A stretch of DNA of 61,108 bases from a virus. Made by a program: the position numbers and the translations under genes. Shown here piece by piece: positions 37,668 through 47,428 of this stretch (its first letter is position 1; every line of letters begins with the position of its first letter). The DNA lies in the IMG/VR virus record IMGVR_UViG_3300045988_115760, one strand, 5' to 3'. Below the pieces are notes generated by a model. The model was not told where the DNA came from and ran no database searches. It saw only the letters and a list, made by a program, of their open reading frames with translations.

Positions 37668-38180
37668 TTATTCCTCCTTTGCCGATTTGATGGCTCCGTC
37701 CAGAAATTCCATCGTGCAGCGGAACAGTTCGGATTGCACGTATGCGACAAGCTCATTTGAGACCGTCATGTGCTTGCATGCCTTGGCTTTGTGTCGGTAT
37801 CCGAGAATCTCGGCGTTGTACAAGCCCATCGCAGCATGCACGCACTCATGGCTGACGATATGCGGCAGCAGGTGTTCGCGGCTCAAATAGATCACGCACA
37901 TGGGGGAGTTCCCGTATTTCACCACATTGGTCTGCGTGTCGATTGGCGCGGACTGCATGAGGGTGATTCCGGCTGTGTCGTTTTCGAACGCGGCATCTCC
38001 AATCGGCCTGTCGAGGTCATTGGATTCGATGGAGGATTCCACCAAGTCGATGCAGGCGGCTCTCCGCATGGTTTCCTCAGTGTCGTACACGCGGACTTCC
38101 ACGCTGACCTTATGCGAGAACTCGGTCAGGTCGATGATGCAGCGTTCGTATTTAAACGACGCGGTTTTCTCTTCGGTCAT
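37668..38180 (-). CDS. Hypothetical protein with an HExxH motif (putative metallopeptidase-like), 170 aa
   Basis: IVSHECVHAAMG; lower GC than the flanking sequence. Confidence 0.55.
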   Translation of the reverse strand: MTEEKTASFKYERCIIDLTEFSHKVSVEVRVYDTEETMRRAACIDLVESSIESNDLDRPIGDAAFENDTAGITLMQSAPIDTQTNVVKYGNSPMCVIYLSREHLLPHIVSHECVHAAMGLYNAEILGYRHKAKACKHMTVSNELVAYVQSELFRCTMEFLDGAIKSAKEE

Positions 38181-38250
38181 GGTTTCCTCGTGGATTCGAT
38201 AAGGATGATTAGACTCAGCAACATTATGAACAAAGCTATGGGGAGAATGC

Positions 38251-38604
38251 TCATAGCTTGCCTTTTGCTTTTCTCATGTAGTATCCCTCAGCGGACAATA
38301 CTTCGAGTGGATTGATGTTGCGAAGCACGTCAACCCATGTAGGGTAGGGGGTGAAAACATTCGGGCCGAGATCACCAATGACGAAGAACCATATAGATCC
38401 ACCTCTAAAGACGATAAGTTTCAGCCATTTCCGGTTCGGATAATCGACTTTCAGCCAGTACTCGCCATCCTGTTGTGGTTCCTCCAAGCGTGGCCTCTTG
38501 GGTGCGGGACGGGTGGCATAGGCGAAATCCTCCTCATAGACAACGAGAAACACTGAAACCGGTTCCTTTTTCGACTCCCAGCTTCCATGTGGCGGAAACA
38601 CCAA
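38251..38604 (-). CDS. Hypothetical protein (about 117 aa, TTG/GTG start)
   Basis: Open frame with RBS-like gagggagacggag upstream; overlaps a 54-codon GTG ORF (38539..38703) in another frame. Confidence 0.4.
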   Translation of the reverse strand: MVFPPHGSWESKKEPVSVFLVVYEEDFAYATRPAPKRPRLEEPQQDGEYWLKVDYPNRKWLKLIVFRGGSIWFFVIGDLGPNVFTPYPTWVDVLRNINPLEVLSAEGYYMRKAKGKL

Positions 38605-38700
38605 CTCCGTCTCCCTCGACCTTAATCATAGAATGCCAATCAGTGCGGGACATCAAATCGCCGGGCTTCAGGTCATCCCAGCCGACGCGAATCTTCTTGC

Positions 38701-39399
38701 TCACCTGTGGTTCTCCTTGCCGATATCGCTGAATCGTGTGTAAAGCCGGTCGTTCACGACGTACATGTTGTAATCATCCTGTTGGATGTACCACCAGCGT
38801 TTTTGATGGCCGGCCTTCAGATACTTCTCGCACGTGTGGTCGATGGTGTTGTCAGGGTTGACCTTCTGCCTGAACGACAATTCATCAACCACGTTGCTAT
38901 CGGCCACGAGACCGGCTATCCGGTCGATACGCTCCGGCGTGAAATCGGGAGTGACCACGTACACGACACGCACCTTCTGACTGTCGAACCATTTGCGGGG
39001 CAATGCCAACGCCACGTCATCGGACAAGCTCGTGGGACGCATGTGATACACCACGCGGCTGAACCTGACCTGCTGCATGACTTGAGCCACGTTGCGTCCG
39101 CATTGGAAGTAGCTGGTGTGCATCTCGGTTTCCGTAAGACAGTCTCCGGCCCTGCGTATCGCCTCCCGGTAGAAGGCGACACGTTTCGACGCTTCCGGCT
39201 CGCGCATGGGGAACAGGGGGTCTCCGCCGCCGCTGAAGCTCAGGAACCTCATGGGGTGGTGTTCGCTTTCACGGCTGATGGTCCGCAGCGTGGCCTGCAT
39301 GTCCGTCACCGGCACGTTCAATCCGGTTTTCCTTACGATGCAGTAGGGGCATGTCCAATGACAGCCGAAATTCGTGATAACCGAATAATGTCCGTTCAT
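38701..39399 (-). CDS. Radical SAM enzyme (232 aa), subfamily unassigned
   Basis: CxxxCxxC cluster at residues 13-20 (FGCHWTCPYC) and a SAM-binding SFSGGGDPLF motif. Confidence 0.8.
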   Translation of the reverse strand: MNGHYSVITNFGCHWTCPYCIVRKTGLNVPVTDMQATLRTISRESEHHPMRFLSFSGGGDPLFPMREPEASKRVAFYREAIRRAGDCLTETEMHTSYFQCGRNVAQVMQQVRFSRVVYHMRPTSLSDDVALALPRKWFDSQKVRVVYVVTPDFTPERIDRIAGLVADSNVVDELSFRQKVNPDNTIDHTCEKYLKAGHQKRWWYIQQDDYNMYVVNDRLYTRFSDIGKENHR

Positions 39400-39887
39400 T
39401 GTGTTTCTCCGATCAGTTGTTCCATTTCACTCACGTTGTCCTGCTTGCGTTTCAACGCCACGCAACGACGTATCCACTCGTGTTTGCGCTGATAGACGTT
39501 GGTTATCCCATCGTTGCCCAACAGTTCGTTGCATGAGCAGACAAGCTGGGGAATATCCGACTCGGTATCCGGTTGCACGGTGGGTTTCTCCCCGCAGACA
39601 GGGCATTCGGGAACTGGCACGGCAACAATTGTCCTTAACAGTCTGCAACCGATATTCCACTTCGGAACGTCCTTGTCCTCAAACGGGGCAAACGAGAAGA
39701 TACTCGCGGAATGATCGCACCACTCCGAGAGCAGCCACACGGAGTCTTCCTGACAGTAGTAGCGGGTAAGGATGTCGTCGTATACATACTTCGGCTTGGG
39801 TGTGCGTCCGCAGATAGGGCATGGCTCCAACACCGGTAGCTTAGGTTCCGGCTCCTCCAAGTGCAGCAGTCGCTTCAGCCAGTTCAT
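39396..39887 (-). CDS. Tandem zinc-ribbon protein, Lar-like x2 (163 aa)
   Basis: EPCPICGRTP...C...C and PECPVCGEKP...CSC; ATGA overlap with the radical SAM gene. Confidence 0.6.
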   Translation of the reverse strand: MNWLKRLLHLEEPEPKLPVLEPCPICGRTPKPKYVYDDILTRYYCQEDSVWLLSEWCDHSASIFSFAPFEDKDVPKWNIGCRLLRTIVAVPVPECPVCGEKPTVQPDTESDIPQLVCSCNELLGNDGITNVYQRKHEWIRRCVALKRKQDNVSEMEQLIGETQ

Positions 39888-40141
39888 ACGTTCCTCGATT
39901 CCATCGACTCGTTGAACGCCTTCTGGAACGCATAAACCCCGGCTTTAACGGCCTTTTCGACGGAACTGTCGGGCGGCAGCGTCACTGTCACGTGCGCGCG
40001 TGGCTGCATGTCGTCGCCTATGAACACGCTGTCCGGTTCCAGTTCGCCCGCCACCGGGACTTCCACGGTGAACGTGGCTAGTTGAAGCGCCTTGGAGTAC
40101 AAGCTCAATTCCACTTCCGTGGTACCAAGATTGATGCTCAT
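39884..40141 (-). CDS. Hypothetical protein (85 aa; start at MSINLG)
   Basis: ATGA overlaps on both sides; the upstream part of the 155-aa ORF overlaps the antirepressor gene. Confidence 0.5.
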   Translation of the reverse strand: MSINLGTTEVELSLYSKALQLATFTVEVPVAGELEPDSVFIGDDMQPRAHVTVTLPPDSSVEKAVKAGVYAFQKAFNESMESRNV

Positions 40142-40917
40142 TGAGTAATCTCCCTGTGTCCGAGGAACTTGTTGACGAAGAACGTCTGACCTTTGCCCGT
40201 GACTTTCGGCGTCTTGTTGATGGTCGTGTGACCGTCCGAGTGAACCACGGTGGTTTCCTTGATCTCGAACAAGCCCAATTCCATAGATTTCTGCGTGGGC
40301 ATGTTGCGAGAGCTGCCGGTTTTCATCAGCCATCCGTTGTCCCTCAGCCACGCGAACAAGCGAGTGCCGCCAATATCCACGCCATTGCCTTTCAGGACTT
40401 TCGCCAAGTCGCCCACAAGGATGCTGGTCTTCGAGGTTTCCACAGCGTCAGCGAACAATGCCTTGGGACGCATCCGTTCGACCTGTGCTTGGGCCTTCTC
40501 TTTTTCCGCCCGCTCCTGTTTGATTTGCGTGGCAAGCCGGATAAGGAAGTCGGGTTCGGTGACTGCCTTTTCCAAAGTCGATTCGGTCATGTACGCACCA
40601 TGCCTGCGAATCGATGGCAGCACCTCGTGCGTGACCCAGCGTTTGAACTCGCGGGCTTCGGGCTTGCGGCTGCGTAACACGAGGGAGTACAGGCCGGACT
40701 CGGACACGAAAACGGGTGCCTTGCCGCCGTTCTGGGCAATGTCCGTAGTACGGATATTGGTGATTTCATCGGCATCGAGGTATTCCCGAATATGGTTGGT
40801 GGCCGTACTGAGAATGGTGCATACGTCCGCTCCAAGGAACCACGGGTTGCCGTGTTCATCGGTTAGGACACGCACCTGAATGCCGTTGAAGTCAAATGGT
40901 TGAATCTGATTGCTCAC
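40138..40917 (-). CDS. Antirepressor: Bro-N domain + KilAC/ANT C-terminal domain (GTG start)
   Basis: FDFNGIQVRVLTDEHGNPWFLGADVC...SESGLYSLVLRSRKPEAREFKRWVTHEVLPSIRRHGAY is a classic Bro-N pattern. Confidence 0.85.
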   Translation of the reverse strand: MSNQIQPFDFNGIQVRVLTDEHGNPWFLGADVCTILSTATNHIREYLDADEITNIRTTDIAQNGGKAPVFVSESGLYSLVLRSRKPEAREFKRWVTHEVLPSIRRHGAYMTESTLEKAVTEPDFLIRLATQIKQERAEKEKAQAQVERMRPKALFADAVETSKTSILVGDLAKVLKGNGVDIGGTRLFAWLRDNGWLMKTGSSRNMPTQKSMELGLFEIKETTVVHSDGHTTINKTPKVTGKGQTFFVNKFLGHREITQ

Positions 40918-41825
40918 TTGTTGTCTCCTTCCTTGGATTGGTTTTGCGAAACCTGCATGATCTCCCACACGTCCGCGTCCTCCGACAAGCCGGACGCGAG
41001 ACGGTAGAAATCACTGAACCGGTAAAGCGGATTGCTGTACGCATCCTCGCCCTGCTGGGGCAACTGGCCTCGATGTATCCAACTACGCAAAGTGCTGCGG
41101 TTCACGCGCATTCCGCACGCCTTGATGATGTCCAACAGTTCGCCGCGGGTTCTCACCGCCTCCGATTGGAGGAGACGTTTCACCCGTTCCGCCCTGATGA
41201 GGGCTACCGGCATACTGAAACCGCATTTCGGGCATTTCGCCGTCTCCGCGTCCGCGTAGCAGGAGAGCTGGCCCAAGCACTTGTCGGCGGGGCATGGCCC
41301 GTACAATACGGTTTCCCCGTCATCGTCCGCGAGAAAACGACGCAGCTTGCGTGTCAGACTGTGAACCAGTTCCGCGTACACGGGGGTGCTGGAATACTCC
41401 ATGAGTTTCGGATGATTGGCGATACGGTAAACCATGTCCGATAGCGGCGTGGACTCGGGCAGATTGATTTTCAGACTGCGCATCCACTCGTACAACGTGC
41501 CTTGCAACCCCGGATAACCGTGGTCATCGTCCGCGTACAGCAGATCATGCAGGGCTTCGCGCAACGGTGCGGGAGCGGTGCCGGATTGACCGCCGCCACC
41601 GTTCTTGTGCCCGTAAGCGCGGTTGATGCGATACTCGCACAGGTCGGGCAGACTGCGGTCCAACCATCGCAGGTCGCCGGTCAACTGGCTGGCGTGCTTG
41701 TCGCACAGGAGATTCAGATTCGGTTCGACGCCATGTCCGATAAGCGGTGACGGCGCGTCGGTGACGATATCCCGCCAGCAACCGTGGTAGCGGCAGAGCC
41801 TCGTAGTTTCAGTGGAAAAAGACAA
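40914..41825 (-). CDS. Putative DNA-binding regulator (zinc ribbon + C-terminal HTH-like region), 303 aa
   Basis: CPADKC...CPKCG zinc ribbon; C-terminal RGELLDIIKACGMRVNRSTLRSWI. Confidence 0.5.
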   Translation of the reverse strand: MSFSTETTRLCRYHGCWRDIVTDAPSPLIGHGVEPNLNLLCDKHASQLTGDLRWLDRSLPDLCEYRINRAYGHKNGGGGQSGTAPAPLREALHDLLYADDDHGYPGLQGTLYEWMRSLKINLPESTPLSDMVYRIANHPKLMEYSSTPVYAELVHSLTRKLRRFLADDDGETVLYGPCPADKCLGQLSCYADAETAKCPKCGFSMPVALIRAERVKRLLQSEAVRTRGELLDIIKACGMRVNRSTLRSWIHRGQLPQQGEDAYSNPLYRFSDFYRLASGLSEDADVWEIMQVSQNQSKEGDNK

Positions 41826-46973: not shown

Positions 46974-47204
46974 TCAGCATTCATCGTCTGCCTCCGTGAC
47001 TTCCTCGCCGACTGGTAGGGTGCGATAGATTTTTGTGATTCGCCACGTGCCCGGCGTCTCGTGGATATGCTTCACAGCGGCCTCATAGGAATTGAAAGTG
47101 ACGGTCGGATACAGCATCTCGATAGCCGAATCGACCAGATATTCTTCCTTGGTCTCCAACTTCATCGTCCGTCTTCCTGACTCATGTAGGTCAACGTGAA
47201 GCAT
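46974..47204 (-). CDS. Hypothetical protein (76 aa)
   Basis: Intact ORF. Confidence 0.5.
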   Translation of the reverse strand: MLHVDLHESGRRTMKLETKEEYLVDSAIEMLYPTVTFNSYEAAVKHIHETPGTWRITKIYRTLPVGEEVTEADDEC

Positions 47205-47428
47205 TTATCACCGTTGCATATGCGGTTCCAAGCGGCGATATTGTATTGCAACTGATACGGGGCGGGCTTCCGTGAACAACCTCCCTCGAAGCCGAGCCCG
47301 CAGACAGTGCAGCGGAACATCACGATAAAGAACGTGTATTCAGGCAACCCCTGCACGCCGTCCCGCTCCCATTTCGCCTTGACCTTGCCCCCACAACGAG
47401 GACACGGGCTAATCCTGTGGAACCTCAC
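47162..47428 (-). CDS. Lar-family restriction-alleviation-like zinc-ribbon protein (start set at the GTG after RBS gagggagg)
   Basis: SPCPRCGG...CTVCG...NIAAWNR, the Lar-type pattern. Confidence 0.6.
   Translation of the reverse strand: MRFHRISPCPRCGGKVKAKWERDGVQGLPEYTFFIVMFRCTVCGLGFEGGCSRKPAPYQLQYNIAAWNRICNGDKCFTLTYMSQEDGR

What the first reader, a model, noticed from the sequence alone, without database searches (positions are those of the whole stretch)
37668..39887. Orphan compact radical-SAM enzyme translationally coupled to a tandem Lar-like zinc-ribbon protein at the distal end of the early operon
ORF 38701..39399 (232 aa) has an N-terminal CxxxCxxC cluster (FGCHWTCPYC, residues 13-20) and an SFSGGGDPLF SAM-binding motif, so a radical-SAM core is well supported. 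It lacks features I would expect for the usual phage radical-SAM enzymes. There is no LQGEG-type upstream motif and no queC/queD/folE partners for QueE. There is no DGPG motif or nrdD partner for NrdG. It is shorter than viperin-like enzymes. Its start overlaps (ATGA) the stop of a 163-aa protein made of two CPxCG zinc-ribbon modules resembling Lar restriction-alleviation proteins; a separate single-module Lar-like gene lies at 47162..47428. That protein is in turn coupled to the antirepressor operon. Downstream lie two unknown ORFs and an HExxH protein (37668..38180) in lower-GC DNA. A radical-SAM enzyme in this context could modify nucleic acid, nucleotides or a host defence component, giving an anti-defence function. 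The function is unknown.
Basis: partly seen in the sequence, partly recalled or inferred. Interest (0 to 1): 0.62.

Follow-up and report, generated by a model that had tools for sequence, protein, structure and literature searches.

The report
Orphan phage radical-SAM enzyme family
A Bifidobacterium prophage carries a small iron-sulfur "radical SAM" enzyme from a widespread but uncharacterised phage family whose relatives repeatedly sit inside, or are fused to, NAD-recycling genes, so it may be an unrecognised part of how phages handle NAD; its supposed zinc-ribbon partner is only a neighbour specific to this phage lineage.

Summary
ORF 38701-39399(-) is a 232-aa radical-SAM protein with CxxxCxxC at residues 13-20, SGGGDP at 56-61, and a predicted six-stranded (beta/alpha) partial barrel (pLDDT 88). 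It lies in a chain of ATGA/GTGA overlaps: antirepressor, 85-aa ORF, 163-aa double-CPxCG protein, rSAM.

It belongs to phrog_17662, function unknown (about 400 clusters at 50% identity). The family occurs only in phages and prophages of anaerobic or facultative Gram-positive hosts. It reaches no curated subfamily cut-off (NrdG, QueE, PflA). Large phages carrying it also have their own NrdD-NrdG.

The zinc-ribbon protein is confined to Bifidobacterium prophages. It is missing beside every more distant homolog, zinc-ribbon neighbours are not enriched (p=0.30), and its Lar match is sub-threshold.

New lead: family members recur next to NAD+/ADP-ribose genes. These include PncA-like-rSAM-Adps-like-Nampt-like-Macro-NADAR-NadE, PncA-like-rSAM-DUF5662-PncB-NadD-NadE, SIR2-rSAM, and NMNAT::rSAM fusions in a NamPT operon. 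The window's own clade has no such genes nearby, so this function is inferred (about 0.3).

The "two unknown ORFs" downstream are one frameshifted gene. Earlier notes of this scan saw this family, and radical-SAM genes beside NAD genes, on other DNA.

The parts
38701..39399 (-). 232-aa radical-SAM enzyme, subgroup A of phage family phrog_17662. One CxxxCxxC cluster site (C13, C17, C20), SGGGDP SAM-binding motif (56-61), and conserved H94-T95-S96, H119, R144, Q178 and D209-Y210-N211.
39396..39887 (-). 163-aa protein with two CPxCG zinc-ribbon-type modules. It is restricted to one lineage of Bifidobacterium prophages, has two main allele types differing in the N-terminal module, and matches Lar only below threshold. 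ATGA overlaps on both sides.
39884..40141 (-). 85-aa ORF of unknown function between the antirepressor and ZnR. The 155-aa GTG-initiated ORF in the mechanical list overlaps the antirepressor gene; relatives call the 85-aa form.
40138..40968 (-). Bro-N / KilAC (ANT) antirepressor, upstream gene of the overlapping chain.
   Evidence: PF03374 127.9 bits, PF02498 81 bits
38251..38704 (-). Broken copy of one gene of unknown function (intact 162-185 aa in L034, L041, L006; 169 aa in L002). Its GTG start overlaps the rSAM stop. It is disrupted by a 30-nt deletion and a +1 A frameshift.
37668..38180 (-). 170-aa HExxH-motif protein (phrog_1365, unknown function). It is the last gene of the minus-strand early operon and is present in 27 of 80 close relatives. 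The family is narrow (16 clusters).

Best explanation
ORF 38701-39399 encodes an active, stand-alone radical-SAM enzyme of an uncharacterised, phage-restricted family (phrog_17662, subgroup A). It is expressed as a distal gene of the prophage's early (antirepressor/replication) operon.

Shown:
- It has the single [4Fe-4S]-binding CxxxCxxC loop after strand 1.
- It has the GG(D/E)P-type SAM motif after strand 2.
- It has a six-stranded partial TIM barrel with a short C-terminal beta-hairpin and no auxiliary-cluster domain.
- It belongs to no curated radical-SAM subfamily.
- It has no conserved protein partner.

Inferred mechanism: the reduced cluster cleaves SAM to a 5'-deoxyadenosyl radical. 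That radical abstracts a hydrogen from a pyridine/adenine nucleotide of the NAD+/ADP-ribose pool supplied by the host (NAD+, NaAD, NMN or an ADPR derivative). This changes or salvages the metabolite to the phage's benefit, most plausibly when host NAD+-depleting defences fire.

The zinc-ribbon protein, the 85-aa ORF, the broken gene and the HExxH protein are lineage-specific accessory neighbours, not parts of a system with the enzyme.

Confidence split:
- Genuine rSAM enzyme of this family, orphan and not NrdG/QueE/viperin: about 0.9.
- NAD-linked substrate for the NAD-adjacent relatives: about 0.45.
- NAD-linked substrate for the window's own enzyme: about 0.3.
For: Radical-SAM identity:
- Motifs are invariant in 105 homologs.
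- The AF2 model has pLDDT 88 and (beta-alpha)6 topology.
- The best PDB fold matches are radical-SAM enzymes: SuiB, EpeE, LipA, HemN, PqqE.
- PF04055 is precomputed on many homologs.
- phrog_17662 matches at E 2e-61.

Family size and hosts:
- 406 representative clusters and more than 400 IMG/VR contigs.
- Hosts are Lachnospiraceae, Oscillospiraceae, Collinsella, Faecalibacterium, Bifidobacterium and Listeria phages.
- It was found in only 1 of 201 Bifidobacteriaceae species genomes.

NAD link:
- PncA-like-rSAM-Prs/Adps-like-Nampt-like(464 bits)-Macro-NADAR-NadE.
- PncA-like-rSAM-DUF5662-PncB(480 bits)-NadD-NadE. Starts and stops abut or overlap in both arrangements.
- NAD genes lie within 6 kb in 9 of 34 lineages.
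- SIR2 (188 bits) lies directly upstream in 7 loci.
- NMNAT::rSAM fusions P0227 and P0265 exist. P0227 sits in a Nudix-NamPT-...-rSAM operon.
- The window protein is 37% identical end to end to a PncA-adjacent member (E 4e-51). It keeps all subgroup-A invariant residues.
- GC3 of 76% matches its neighbours, so it is a long-resident gene.
Against: - The window's own clade has no NAD gene within 6 kb. This clade has 8 representatives: Bifidobacterium and Collinsella prophages and Listeria phage LP-037.
- Five near-complete relatives of the prophage have no NAPRTase anywhere.
- In one complete large phage (G006) the PncB/NadE genes lie about 54 kb from the rSAM.
- The NAD-adjacent lineages all come from related low-GC large gut phages, so inherited synteny inflates the counts.
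- No radical-SAM step is known in NAD salvage or in the NARP1-3 pathways.
- No substrate-binding residues could be assigned.
- Weak sequence similarity points most often to NrdG-type activases and EpmB.
Confidence: 0.4

Rival explanations
1. Protein-directed radical enzyme. It would be a divergent activase that installs a glycyl (or other) radical on, or otherwise modifies, a host protein such as the host's pyruvate formate-lyase or class III ribonucleotide reductase, boosting anaerobic metabolism or dNTP supply during infection.
For: - Its small size and lack of auxiliary domains resemble activases, whose protein substrate closes the open barrel.
- The most frequent weak hits among 69 family members are NrdG2 (36/69, best E 1e-10) and NrdG (16/69).
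- One source names a homolog 'pyruvate-formate lyase-activating enzyme'.
- All hosts are anaerobes or facultative anaerobes.
- The nearest held host-type genome has two glycyl-radical enzymes.
Against: - All hits are far below cut-offs. The window protein scores 11.6 vs 131 bits for NrdG2 and has no PflA hit.
- Large phages with this family already encode NrdD with an adjacent canonical NrdG.
- No glycyl-radical protein recurs in the neighbourhoods.
- The host already has its own activases.
- PFL-AE and NrdG structures are not among the top 50 PDB fold matches.
Confidence: 0.17
2. Nucleic-acid-modifying enzyme. It would act on phage DNA, tRNA or rRNA (for example a base or sugar modification) to evade restriction or retune translation.
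For: - It lies in early or nucleotide-metabolism regions of phage genomes, near dUTPase, FolD and RecT/SSB.
- Paralogous subgroup B is tightly paired with an RlmN/Cfr-like radical-SAM methylase, in 53 of 80 loci.
- The window protein's weak NCBIfam hits include RlmN and Cfr.
- An earlier scan note (e1-3777606, unchecked) places a look-alike among candidate DNA-modification genes.
Against: - No nucleic-acid-binding domain is present.
- No conserved partner of known phage DNA-hypermodification pathways (QueC/D/FolE, 5-hmdU kinase) was found. QueC is absent from 5 relatives.
- The RlmN/Cfr hits cover only the cluster motif.
- Subgroup A never has the RlmN-like partner.
Confidence: 0.17
3. The zinc-ribbon (Lar-like) protein and the radical-SAM enzyme form a two-component anti-restriction or anti-defence module.
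For: - ATGA translational coupling.
- The pair is kept in 77 of 80 close relatives and in more distant Bifidobacterium prophage variants.
- The ZnR N-terminal module is the most variable part of the block, as expected for a host-interaction surface.
- One family member (P0092) has a C-terminal CxxCG...CPxCG zinc ribbon fused to it.
Against: - The ZnR family is confined to one prophage lineage.
- It is absent next to all homologs at 64% identity or lower.
- The rSAM occurs without ZnR (L010, L059, L060) and ZnR occurs without rSAM (L273).
- Zinc-ribbon neighbours are not enriched (p=0.30).
- The Lar match is below cut-off.
Confidence: 0.08
4. RiPP-type peptide maturase acting on a small neighbouring ORF product.
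For: The top PDB fold matches are the peptide-modifying enzymes SuiB, EpeE and PqqE. Small ORFs flank the gene.
Against: - Those matches have TM about 0.55 over the generic core only.
- There is no SPASM/twitch domain or RRE.
- No conserved precursor-like neighbour occurs across 34 lineages.
Confidence: 0.04

Closest known systems
Radical SAM superfamily core (PF04055), e.g. activases NrdG/PflA and QueE as the smallest members
   Same: - CxxxCxxC with an aromatic residue before the last Cys, in the loop after strand 1.
- GGxP SAM motif after strand 2.
- (beta-alpha)6 partial barrel.
- About 215-230 aa with no auxiliary cluster.
   Different: - It scores below the cut-off of every curated subfamily.
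- It has its own invariant residues: N10-F11-G12, H14, HTS 94-96, H119, R144, SFRQ 175-178, DYN 209-211.
- There is no NrdD, PFL or Que partner.
Phage NAD+ reconstitution pathways NARP1 (Adps + Namat), NARP2 (Nampt + Nmnat) and NARP3 (NadR + PnuC) (bioRxiv 10.1101/2024.02.11.579819; PMC13464706)
   Same: Relatives of the enzyme sit inside phage operons holding Prs/Adps-like, Nampt/NAPRT-like, NMNAT, NadE, PncA-like, Macro and NADAR genes. This is the same genomic theme of countering NAD+ depletion.
   Different: - None of the described pathways contains a radical-SAM step (no mention).
- The window's phage has no NARP genes.
- The link is by gene neighbourhood and fusion only.
Prokaryotic viperins (pVips) and other nucleotide-modifying radical-SAM enzymes
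   Same: A single-cluster radical-SAM enzyme presumed to act on a free nucleotide in a phage-host conflict.
   Different: - It is shorter.
- No viperin profile hit was found.
- It is encoded by the phage, not the host.
- The chemistry is unknown.
Lar restriction-alleviation protein family (PF14354 / TIGR03655), compared with the 163-aa neighbour
   Same: A CPxCG...CxC zinc-ribbon pattern in a small phage early protein.
   Different: - Scores are 21.8 and 17.5 bits, below cut-offs of 28.6 and 39.6.
- It has two modules plus a conserved C-terminal helical tail.
- No function has been tested.

Membership tests
Radical SAM superfamily | CxxxCxxC [4Fe-4S] motif in the loop after the first beta strand | tested here: met
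   C13, C17 and C20. They are invariant or nearly invariant in 105 homologs. The loop follows strand E4-9 in the model.
Radical SAM superfamily | SAM-binding GGE-type motif and partial (beta/alpha)6 TIM barrel | tested here: met
   S54-x-S56-G-G-G-D60-P is invariant. The AF2 model (pLDDT 88) has six strand-helix units. The top Foldseek PDB hits are radical-SAM enzymes at E about 1e-4 and TM about 0.55.
Radical SAM superfamily | Pfam PF04055 score above the gathering threshold | tested here: inconclusive
   20.7 bits against a cut-off of 29.5 for the window protein. Many homologs carry precomputed PF04055 hits.
Radical SAM superfamily | Reductive SAM cleavage by a bound [4Fe-4S] cluster | not testable with these tools
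   This needs anaerobic biochemistry.
NrdG (class III RNR activase) | Profile score above the curated cut-off (TIGR02491/TIGR02495) | tested here: not met
   TIGR02495 scores 11.6 against 131.15 bits, over 15 residues only. There is no TIGR02491 hit.
NrdG (class III RNR activase) | NrdD partner lacking another activase in the same phage | tested here: not met
   Five near-complete relatives of the prophage have no NrdD. In 4 of 5 large phages carrying the family, NrdD has its own canonical NrdG adjacent.
QueE (7-carboxy-7-deazaguanine synthase) | QueE profile hit and queC/queD/folE partners | tested here: not met
   The window protein has no QueE hit at E<=1. Five relatives have no QueC. queD and folE were not searched separately.
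PflA (pyruvate formate-lyase activase) | Profile score above the cut-off (TIGR02493) | tested here: not met
   The window protein has no hit. Five of 69 family members have weak hits only.
phrog_17662 (uncharacterised phage protein family) | Full-length profile match | tested here: met
   E 2.3e-61, 208 bits, residues 2-230 on profile positions 2-216 of 217. A PncA-adjacent member matches the same PHROG at E 4e-70.
Phage NAD+ reconstitution / NAD salvage operon component | Located in an operon with NAD salvage genes | tested here: not met
   The window has no hit to the NadE, PncA, PncB, Prs-like, Nampt, NadD, Macro or NADAR profiles built here. Five relatives have no NAPRTase. The feature is met only for relatives.
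Lar restriction alleviation family (for ORF 39396-39887) | PF14354 / TIGR03655 score above the cut-off | tested here: not met
   21.8 against 28.6 bits and 17.5 against 39.6 bits. An allele from L006 scores 22.0 bits.

The most novel reading that the evidence does not exclude
phrog_17662 would be a missing radical-chemistry step in phage NAD+/ADP-ribose metabolism. It would be a small radical-SAM enzyme that modifies or regenerates a pyridine dinucleotide or ADP-ribose-derived metabolite. It would work alone in temperate phages such as this one, and together with PncA, Adps/Namat-like, NadE, SIR2 or an NMNAT domain in large phages. It would be a new type of counter-defence against NAD+-depleting immunity.
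Probability: 0.25. Interest if true: 0.8.

Novelty: new variant of a known kind. Interest (0 to 1): 0.55.

Why it matters
Radical-SAM enzymes in phages have so far been tied to a few roles: NrdG, QueE and thymidine hypermodification. This family has hundreds of clusters, spans temperate Bifidobacterium and Collinsella prophages, virulent Listeria phages and large gut phages, and has no assigned function.

Its repeated placement beside nicotinamidase-like, Adps/Namat-like, NadE, SIR2, Macro and NADAR genes, and its fusion to an NMNAT domain, suggest that phage handling of NAD+ includes radical chemistry that the described NARP pathways do not account for. NAD+ handling is currently a focus of defence and counter-defence research.

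The prophage is also very common in human-gut Bifidobacterium. The IMG/VR scan's 80 kept loci, the maximum the tool returns, were all 93-99% identical. The enzyme is therefore likely to be expressed often in the infant and adult gut.

If the NAD link fails, the result is still useful. It removes the tempting 'Lar-like partner' model and leaves a clean, tractable orphan enzyme.

Tried and rejected
- Single-sequence AF2 model was useless (pLDDT 41). It was replaced by an alignment-based model.
- Megablast of the 2.4-kb block against phage records gave no match. tblastn of the ZnR and HExxH proteins against phages gave no match.
- Sequence searches of the PDB with the family profile, ZnR, HExxH and neighbour c79 gave nothing meaningful.
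- PADLOC gave no hit for the rSAM.
- NrdG, QueE and PflA membership was rejected. The viperin-like reading got no support: no viperin profile appeared in the NCBIfam scan.
- Conserved neighbour on either side: alignments of flanking ORFs from L001-L004 show no homology.
- Zinc-ribbon neighbour enrichment test was not significant.
- A glycyl-radical-like 'RVGW' at the N-terminus of the downstream gene was dismissed. The Gly is not conserved (L002 has RVAW) and the spacing is wrong.
- My first longest-ORF gene caller picked the wrong strand in this high-GC DNA. It was replaced by a GC3-weighted caller.
It was rerun with A5.
- Literature searches for this family, for radical SAM with Listeria phage P70, with Bifidobacterium prophages, and with phage NAD pathways returned nothing relevant. 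The NARP papers do not mention radical SAM.
- The window's own assembly is not held.
Full report
WHAT IS THERE

The window is a prophage of about 60 kb and about 57% GC. Bifidobacterium is the likely host. A ZnR homolog is named from B. longum, an rSAM homolog from B. eulemuris, and earlier scan notes say the same. The flagged genes lie on the minus strand at the distal end of the early operon.

The chain runs antirepressor (Bro-N + KilAC), an 85-aa ORF, a 163-aa double-CPxCG protein (ZnR), then the 232-aa radical-SAM protein. It is linked by three ATGA overlaps read directly from the sequence. The rSAM stop overlaps the GTG start of the next gene. The simple scans find no promoter-like site and no convincing terminator on this strand inside the block.

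THE RADICAL-SAM CALL

The protein has C13-x3-C17-x2-C20 and S54-F-S-G-G-G-D-P61. Pfam Radical_SAM reaches only 20.7 bits against a cut-off of 29.5, so the profile alone does not settle it. Three other lines of evidence do:
- In a 105-sequence alignment the motif residues and a further set are invariant: N10, F11, G12, H14, H94-T95-S96, H119, R144, Q178.
- An alignment-based AlphaFold2 model is confident (pLDDT 88.2, pTM 0.87). It shows six strand-helix units with the Cys loop after strand 1, plus a short C-terminal beta-hairpin.
- The best PDB fold matches are radical-SAM enzymes (SuiB, EpeE, LipA, HemN, PqqE), but only at the level of the generic core (E about 1e-4, TM about 0.55).

The other three cysteines (87, 100, 190) are not conserved, so there is one cluster and no SPASM or twitch domain.

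WHICH FAMILY

The protein matches phrog_17662 (unknown function) end to end at E 2e-61. It has 196 word-index homologs and 406 representative clusters at 50% identity in 1.84 billion proteins. More than 400 IMG/VR contigs encode a relative.

Named hosts are anaerobic or facultative Gram-positives. They include Lachnospiraceae, Oscillospiraceae, Collinsella, Faecalibacterium and Peptacetobacter, and virulent Listeria Homburgvirus phages at 39% identity. It is not a housekeeping gene. It appears in 19 loci from a scan covering one genome for each of 185,579 species, and in 1 of 201 Bifidobacteriaceae species genomes.

KNOWN SUBFAMILIES EXCLUDED

NCBIfam gives the window protein nothing better than 12 bits. 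Across 69 members the commonest weak hits are NrdG2, EpmB and NrdG, all far below cut-offs. Four of five large phages that carry the family also encode NrdD with a canonical NrdG next to it, tens of kilobases from this gene. Five near-complete relatives of the prophage have no NrdD, no QueC and no NAPRTase. PADLOC has no match.

THE PROPOSED ZINC-RIBBON PARTNER

Eighty IMG/VR loci carry an rSAM 93-99% identical to the window's. In 77 of them the ZnR gene is upstream. Three loci have a different antirepressor and no ZnR. The ZnR family has only 43 clusters at 90% identity, all in the same synteny. One locus has a truncated ZnR and no rSAM.

None of the more distant homolog loci has a related upstream gene. 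Across 65 lineage representatives, zinc-ribbon-pattern neighbours are no commoner next to the rSAM than elsewhere in the same loci (9/111 against 70/1214, Fisher p=0.30).

Two facts keep the idea alive at low probability. One family member has a zinc ribbon fused to its C-terminus (P0092). The N-terminal module of ZnR is the most variable part of the block, with mean pairwise identity 82.6% against 96.5% for the rSAM. The Lar resemblance is sub-threshold for this protein and for the separate ORF at 47162-47428.

The HExxH protein is present in only 27 of 80 close relatives. It belongs to a narrow unannotated family.

A NEW LEAD: NAD+/ADP-RIBOSE CONTEXT

I called genes in 189 loci, clustered them and dereplicated the rSAM at 80% identity, giving 34 lineages. 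The most recurrent neighbours were checked with Pfam and NCBIfam. They are:
- a nicotinamidase-like isochorismatase, directly upstream in 27 loci
- a Prs/Adps-like ribose-phosphate diphosphokinase homolog, directly downstream in 14 loci
- a Nampt-type phosphoribosyltransferase (464 bits)
- PncB (480 bits)
- NadD
- NadE (157 bits)
- Macro
- NADAR (96 bits)

Two operon layouts occur. One is PncA-like-rSAM-Adps-like-Nampt-like-Macro-NADAR-NadE. The other is PncA-like-rSAM-DUF5662-PncB-NadD-NadE. Starts and stops abut or overlap in both. Nine of 34 lineages have NAD genes within 6 kb.

A canonical SIR2 (188 bits) lies directly upstream of the small rSAM in seven loci.

In the paralogous subgroup B, two representatives are fusions of a NadM-like NMN adenylyltransferase domain with the rSAM. 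One of them sits in an operon reading Nudix, NamPT, RlmN-like rSAM, NMNAT::rSAM, rSAM, B12-rSAM. Subgroup B is otherwise paired with that RlmN/Cfr-like rSAM in 53 of 80 loci.

For scale, published work puts NARP1 in about 4% of phage genomes (PMC13464706). Neither that paper nor the original NARP preprint mentions a radical-SAM enzyme.

LIMITS OF THE LEAD

In the maximum-likelihood tree the window protein falls in a well-supported clade of eight representatives (100/99). These are Bifidobacterium and Collinsella prophages and Listeria phage LP-037, and none has NAD genes nearby. The NAD-linked members are scattered through the sister clade of low-GC large gut phages, so shared synteny inflates the counts.

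In one complete large phage the PncB/NadE genes lie about 54 kb from the rSAM, although SIR2 is adjacent to it there. The window has no match to any of the NAD profiles I built.

The window protein is 37% identical over its full length to a PncA-adjacent member, and it keeps every subgroup-A invariant residue. That supports a shared reaction but does not prove one.

MECHANISM, WITH STATUS OF EACH STEP

Shown:
- a single-cluster radical-SAM fold
- an orphan gene, always about 210-230 aa, with no conserved partner
- expression context as a distal early-operon gene
- codon usage like its neighbours (GC3 76%)

Inferred:
- SAM cleavage to a 5'-deoxyadenosyl radical and H-abstraction from a small nucleotide
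- the substrate belongs to the NAD+/ADP-ribose pool
- the benefit is maintenance or protection of NAD+ during infection

I put the NAD-linked reading at about 0.3 for this gene. Rivals are a protein-directed activase-like role (0.17), nucleic-acid modification (0.17), the ZnR-rSAM module (0.08) and a RiPP maturase (0.04). The rest is unassigned.

NOVELTY AND VERDICT

The superfamily is known and the PHROG exists. The function is unknown, and the family fits none of the curated subfamily profiles searched here (Pfam, NCBIfam). The NAD association was not found in the literature searched.

Earlier notes of this scan had seen this same family in another phage (e1-1964804). They had also seen unrelated or unidentified radical-SAM genes beside NAD salvage genes (e1-1143398, e1-4548464, e1-2364505). 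These notes are unchecked AI leads. I could not test whether their enzymes are the same family.

I class the finding as a new variant of a known kind, with interest 0.55.

Noticed in passing
window 38251-38704 (-): The two 'unknown ORFs' are one gene (intact 162-185 aa in L034:6696-7184, L041:3687-4175, L006:4169-4726). In the window it is broken by a 30-nt in-frame deletion and one extra A in an A-run. This is either a pseudogene or a homopolymer sequencing error.
   Followed up: yes
window 39396-39887 (-); 78 alleles from L006-L089: The zinc-ribbon protein occurs as two main allele types that differ mostly in the N-terminal CPxCG module (mean pairwise identity 82.6%). The C-terminal module and tail (91.8%) and the flanking rSAM (96.5%) are conserved. 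This could reflect allelic exchange or diversifying selection.
   Followed up: partly
L190:5045-6010, L203:6729-7709, L230:7056-8078 and 50 other loci: A paralogous subgroup of the small rSAM is paired within 1-3 genes with an RlmN/Cfr-like radical-SAM protein (STQxGCxxxCxFC ... CCGQLAQ), often with a 142-aa HAD-like ORF between them. It is an uncharacterised two-rSAM cassette in large phages.
   Followed up: partly
L274:2373-9425: Operon reading Nudix, NamPT, RlmN-like rSAM, NMNAT::small-rSAM fusion (P0227), 118-aa ORF, rSAM, B12-binding rSAM. Four radical-SAM enzymes sit inside a NARP2-like NAD salvage operon on a 205-kb contig.
   Followed up: partly
L135:5482-10522; L168:5484-9807: Large gut phages carry extended NAD clusters. 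One is PncA-like, rSAM, Adps-like, Nampt-like, Macro, NADAR, NadE. The other is PncA-like, rSAM, DUF5662, PncB, NadD, NadE. They are possible deamidated-route variants of phage NAD+ reconstitution.
   Followed up: partly
L137:5217-5957 and L216, L219, L224-L227: A canonical sirtuin (PF02146, 188 bits) is encoded directly upstream of the small rSAM. At this syntenic position related phages carry either a subgroup-A rSAM or the subgroup-B rSAM with its RlmN-like partner.
   Followed up: partly
L161:1389-2099 (phrog_6721): A 226-236-aa protein of unknown function, with no Pfam, NCBIfam or PDB match, is the immediate upstream neighbour of the rSAM in 16 loci of 3 lineages.
   Followed up: partly
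window 39884-40351 (-): The mechanical 155-aa GTG ORF overlaps the antirepressor gene. Relatives call an 85-aa product starting at the ATG at 40141, which overlaps the antirepressor stop (ATGA).
   Followed up: yes
P0103, P0112 vs L009:4607-5008: In Collinsella prophages the ORF upstream of the rSAM is fused in frame to the rSAM in some database entries (301 aa). This is either a real fusion or a different start-codon call.
   Followed up: no
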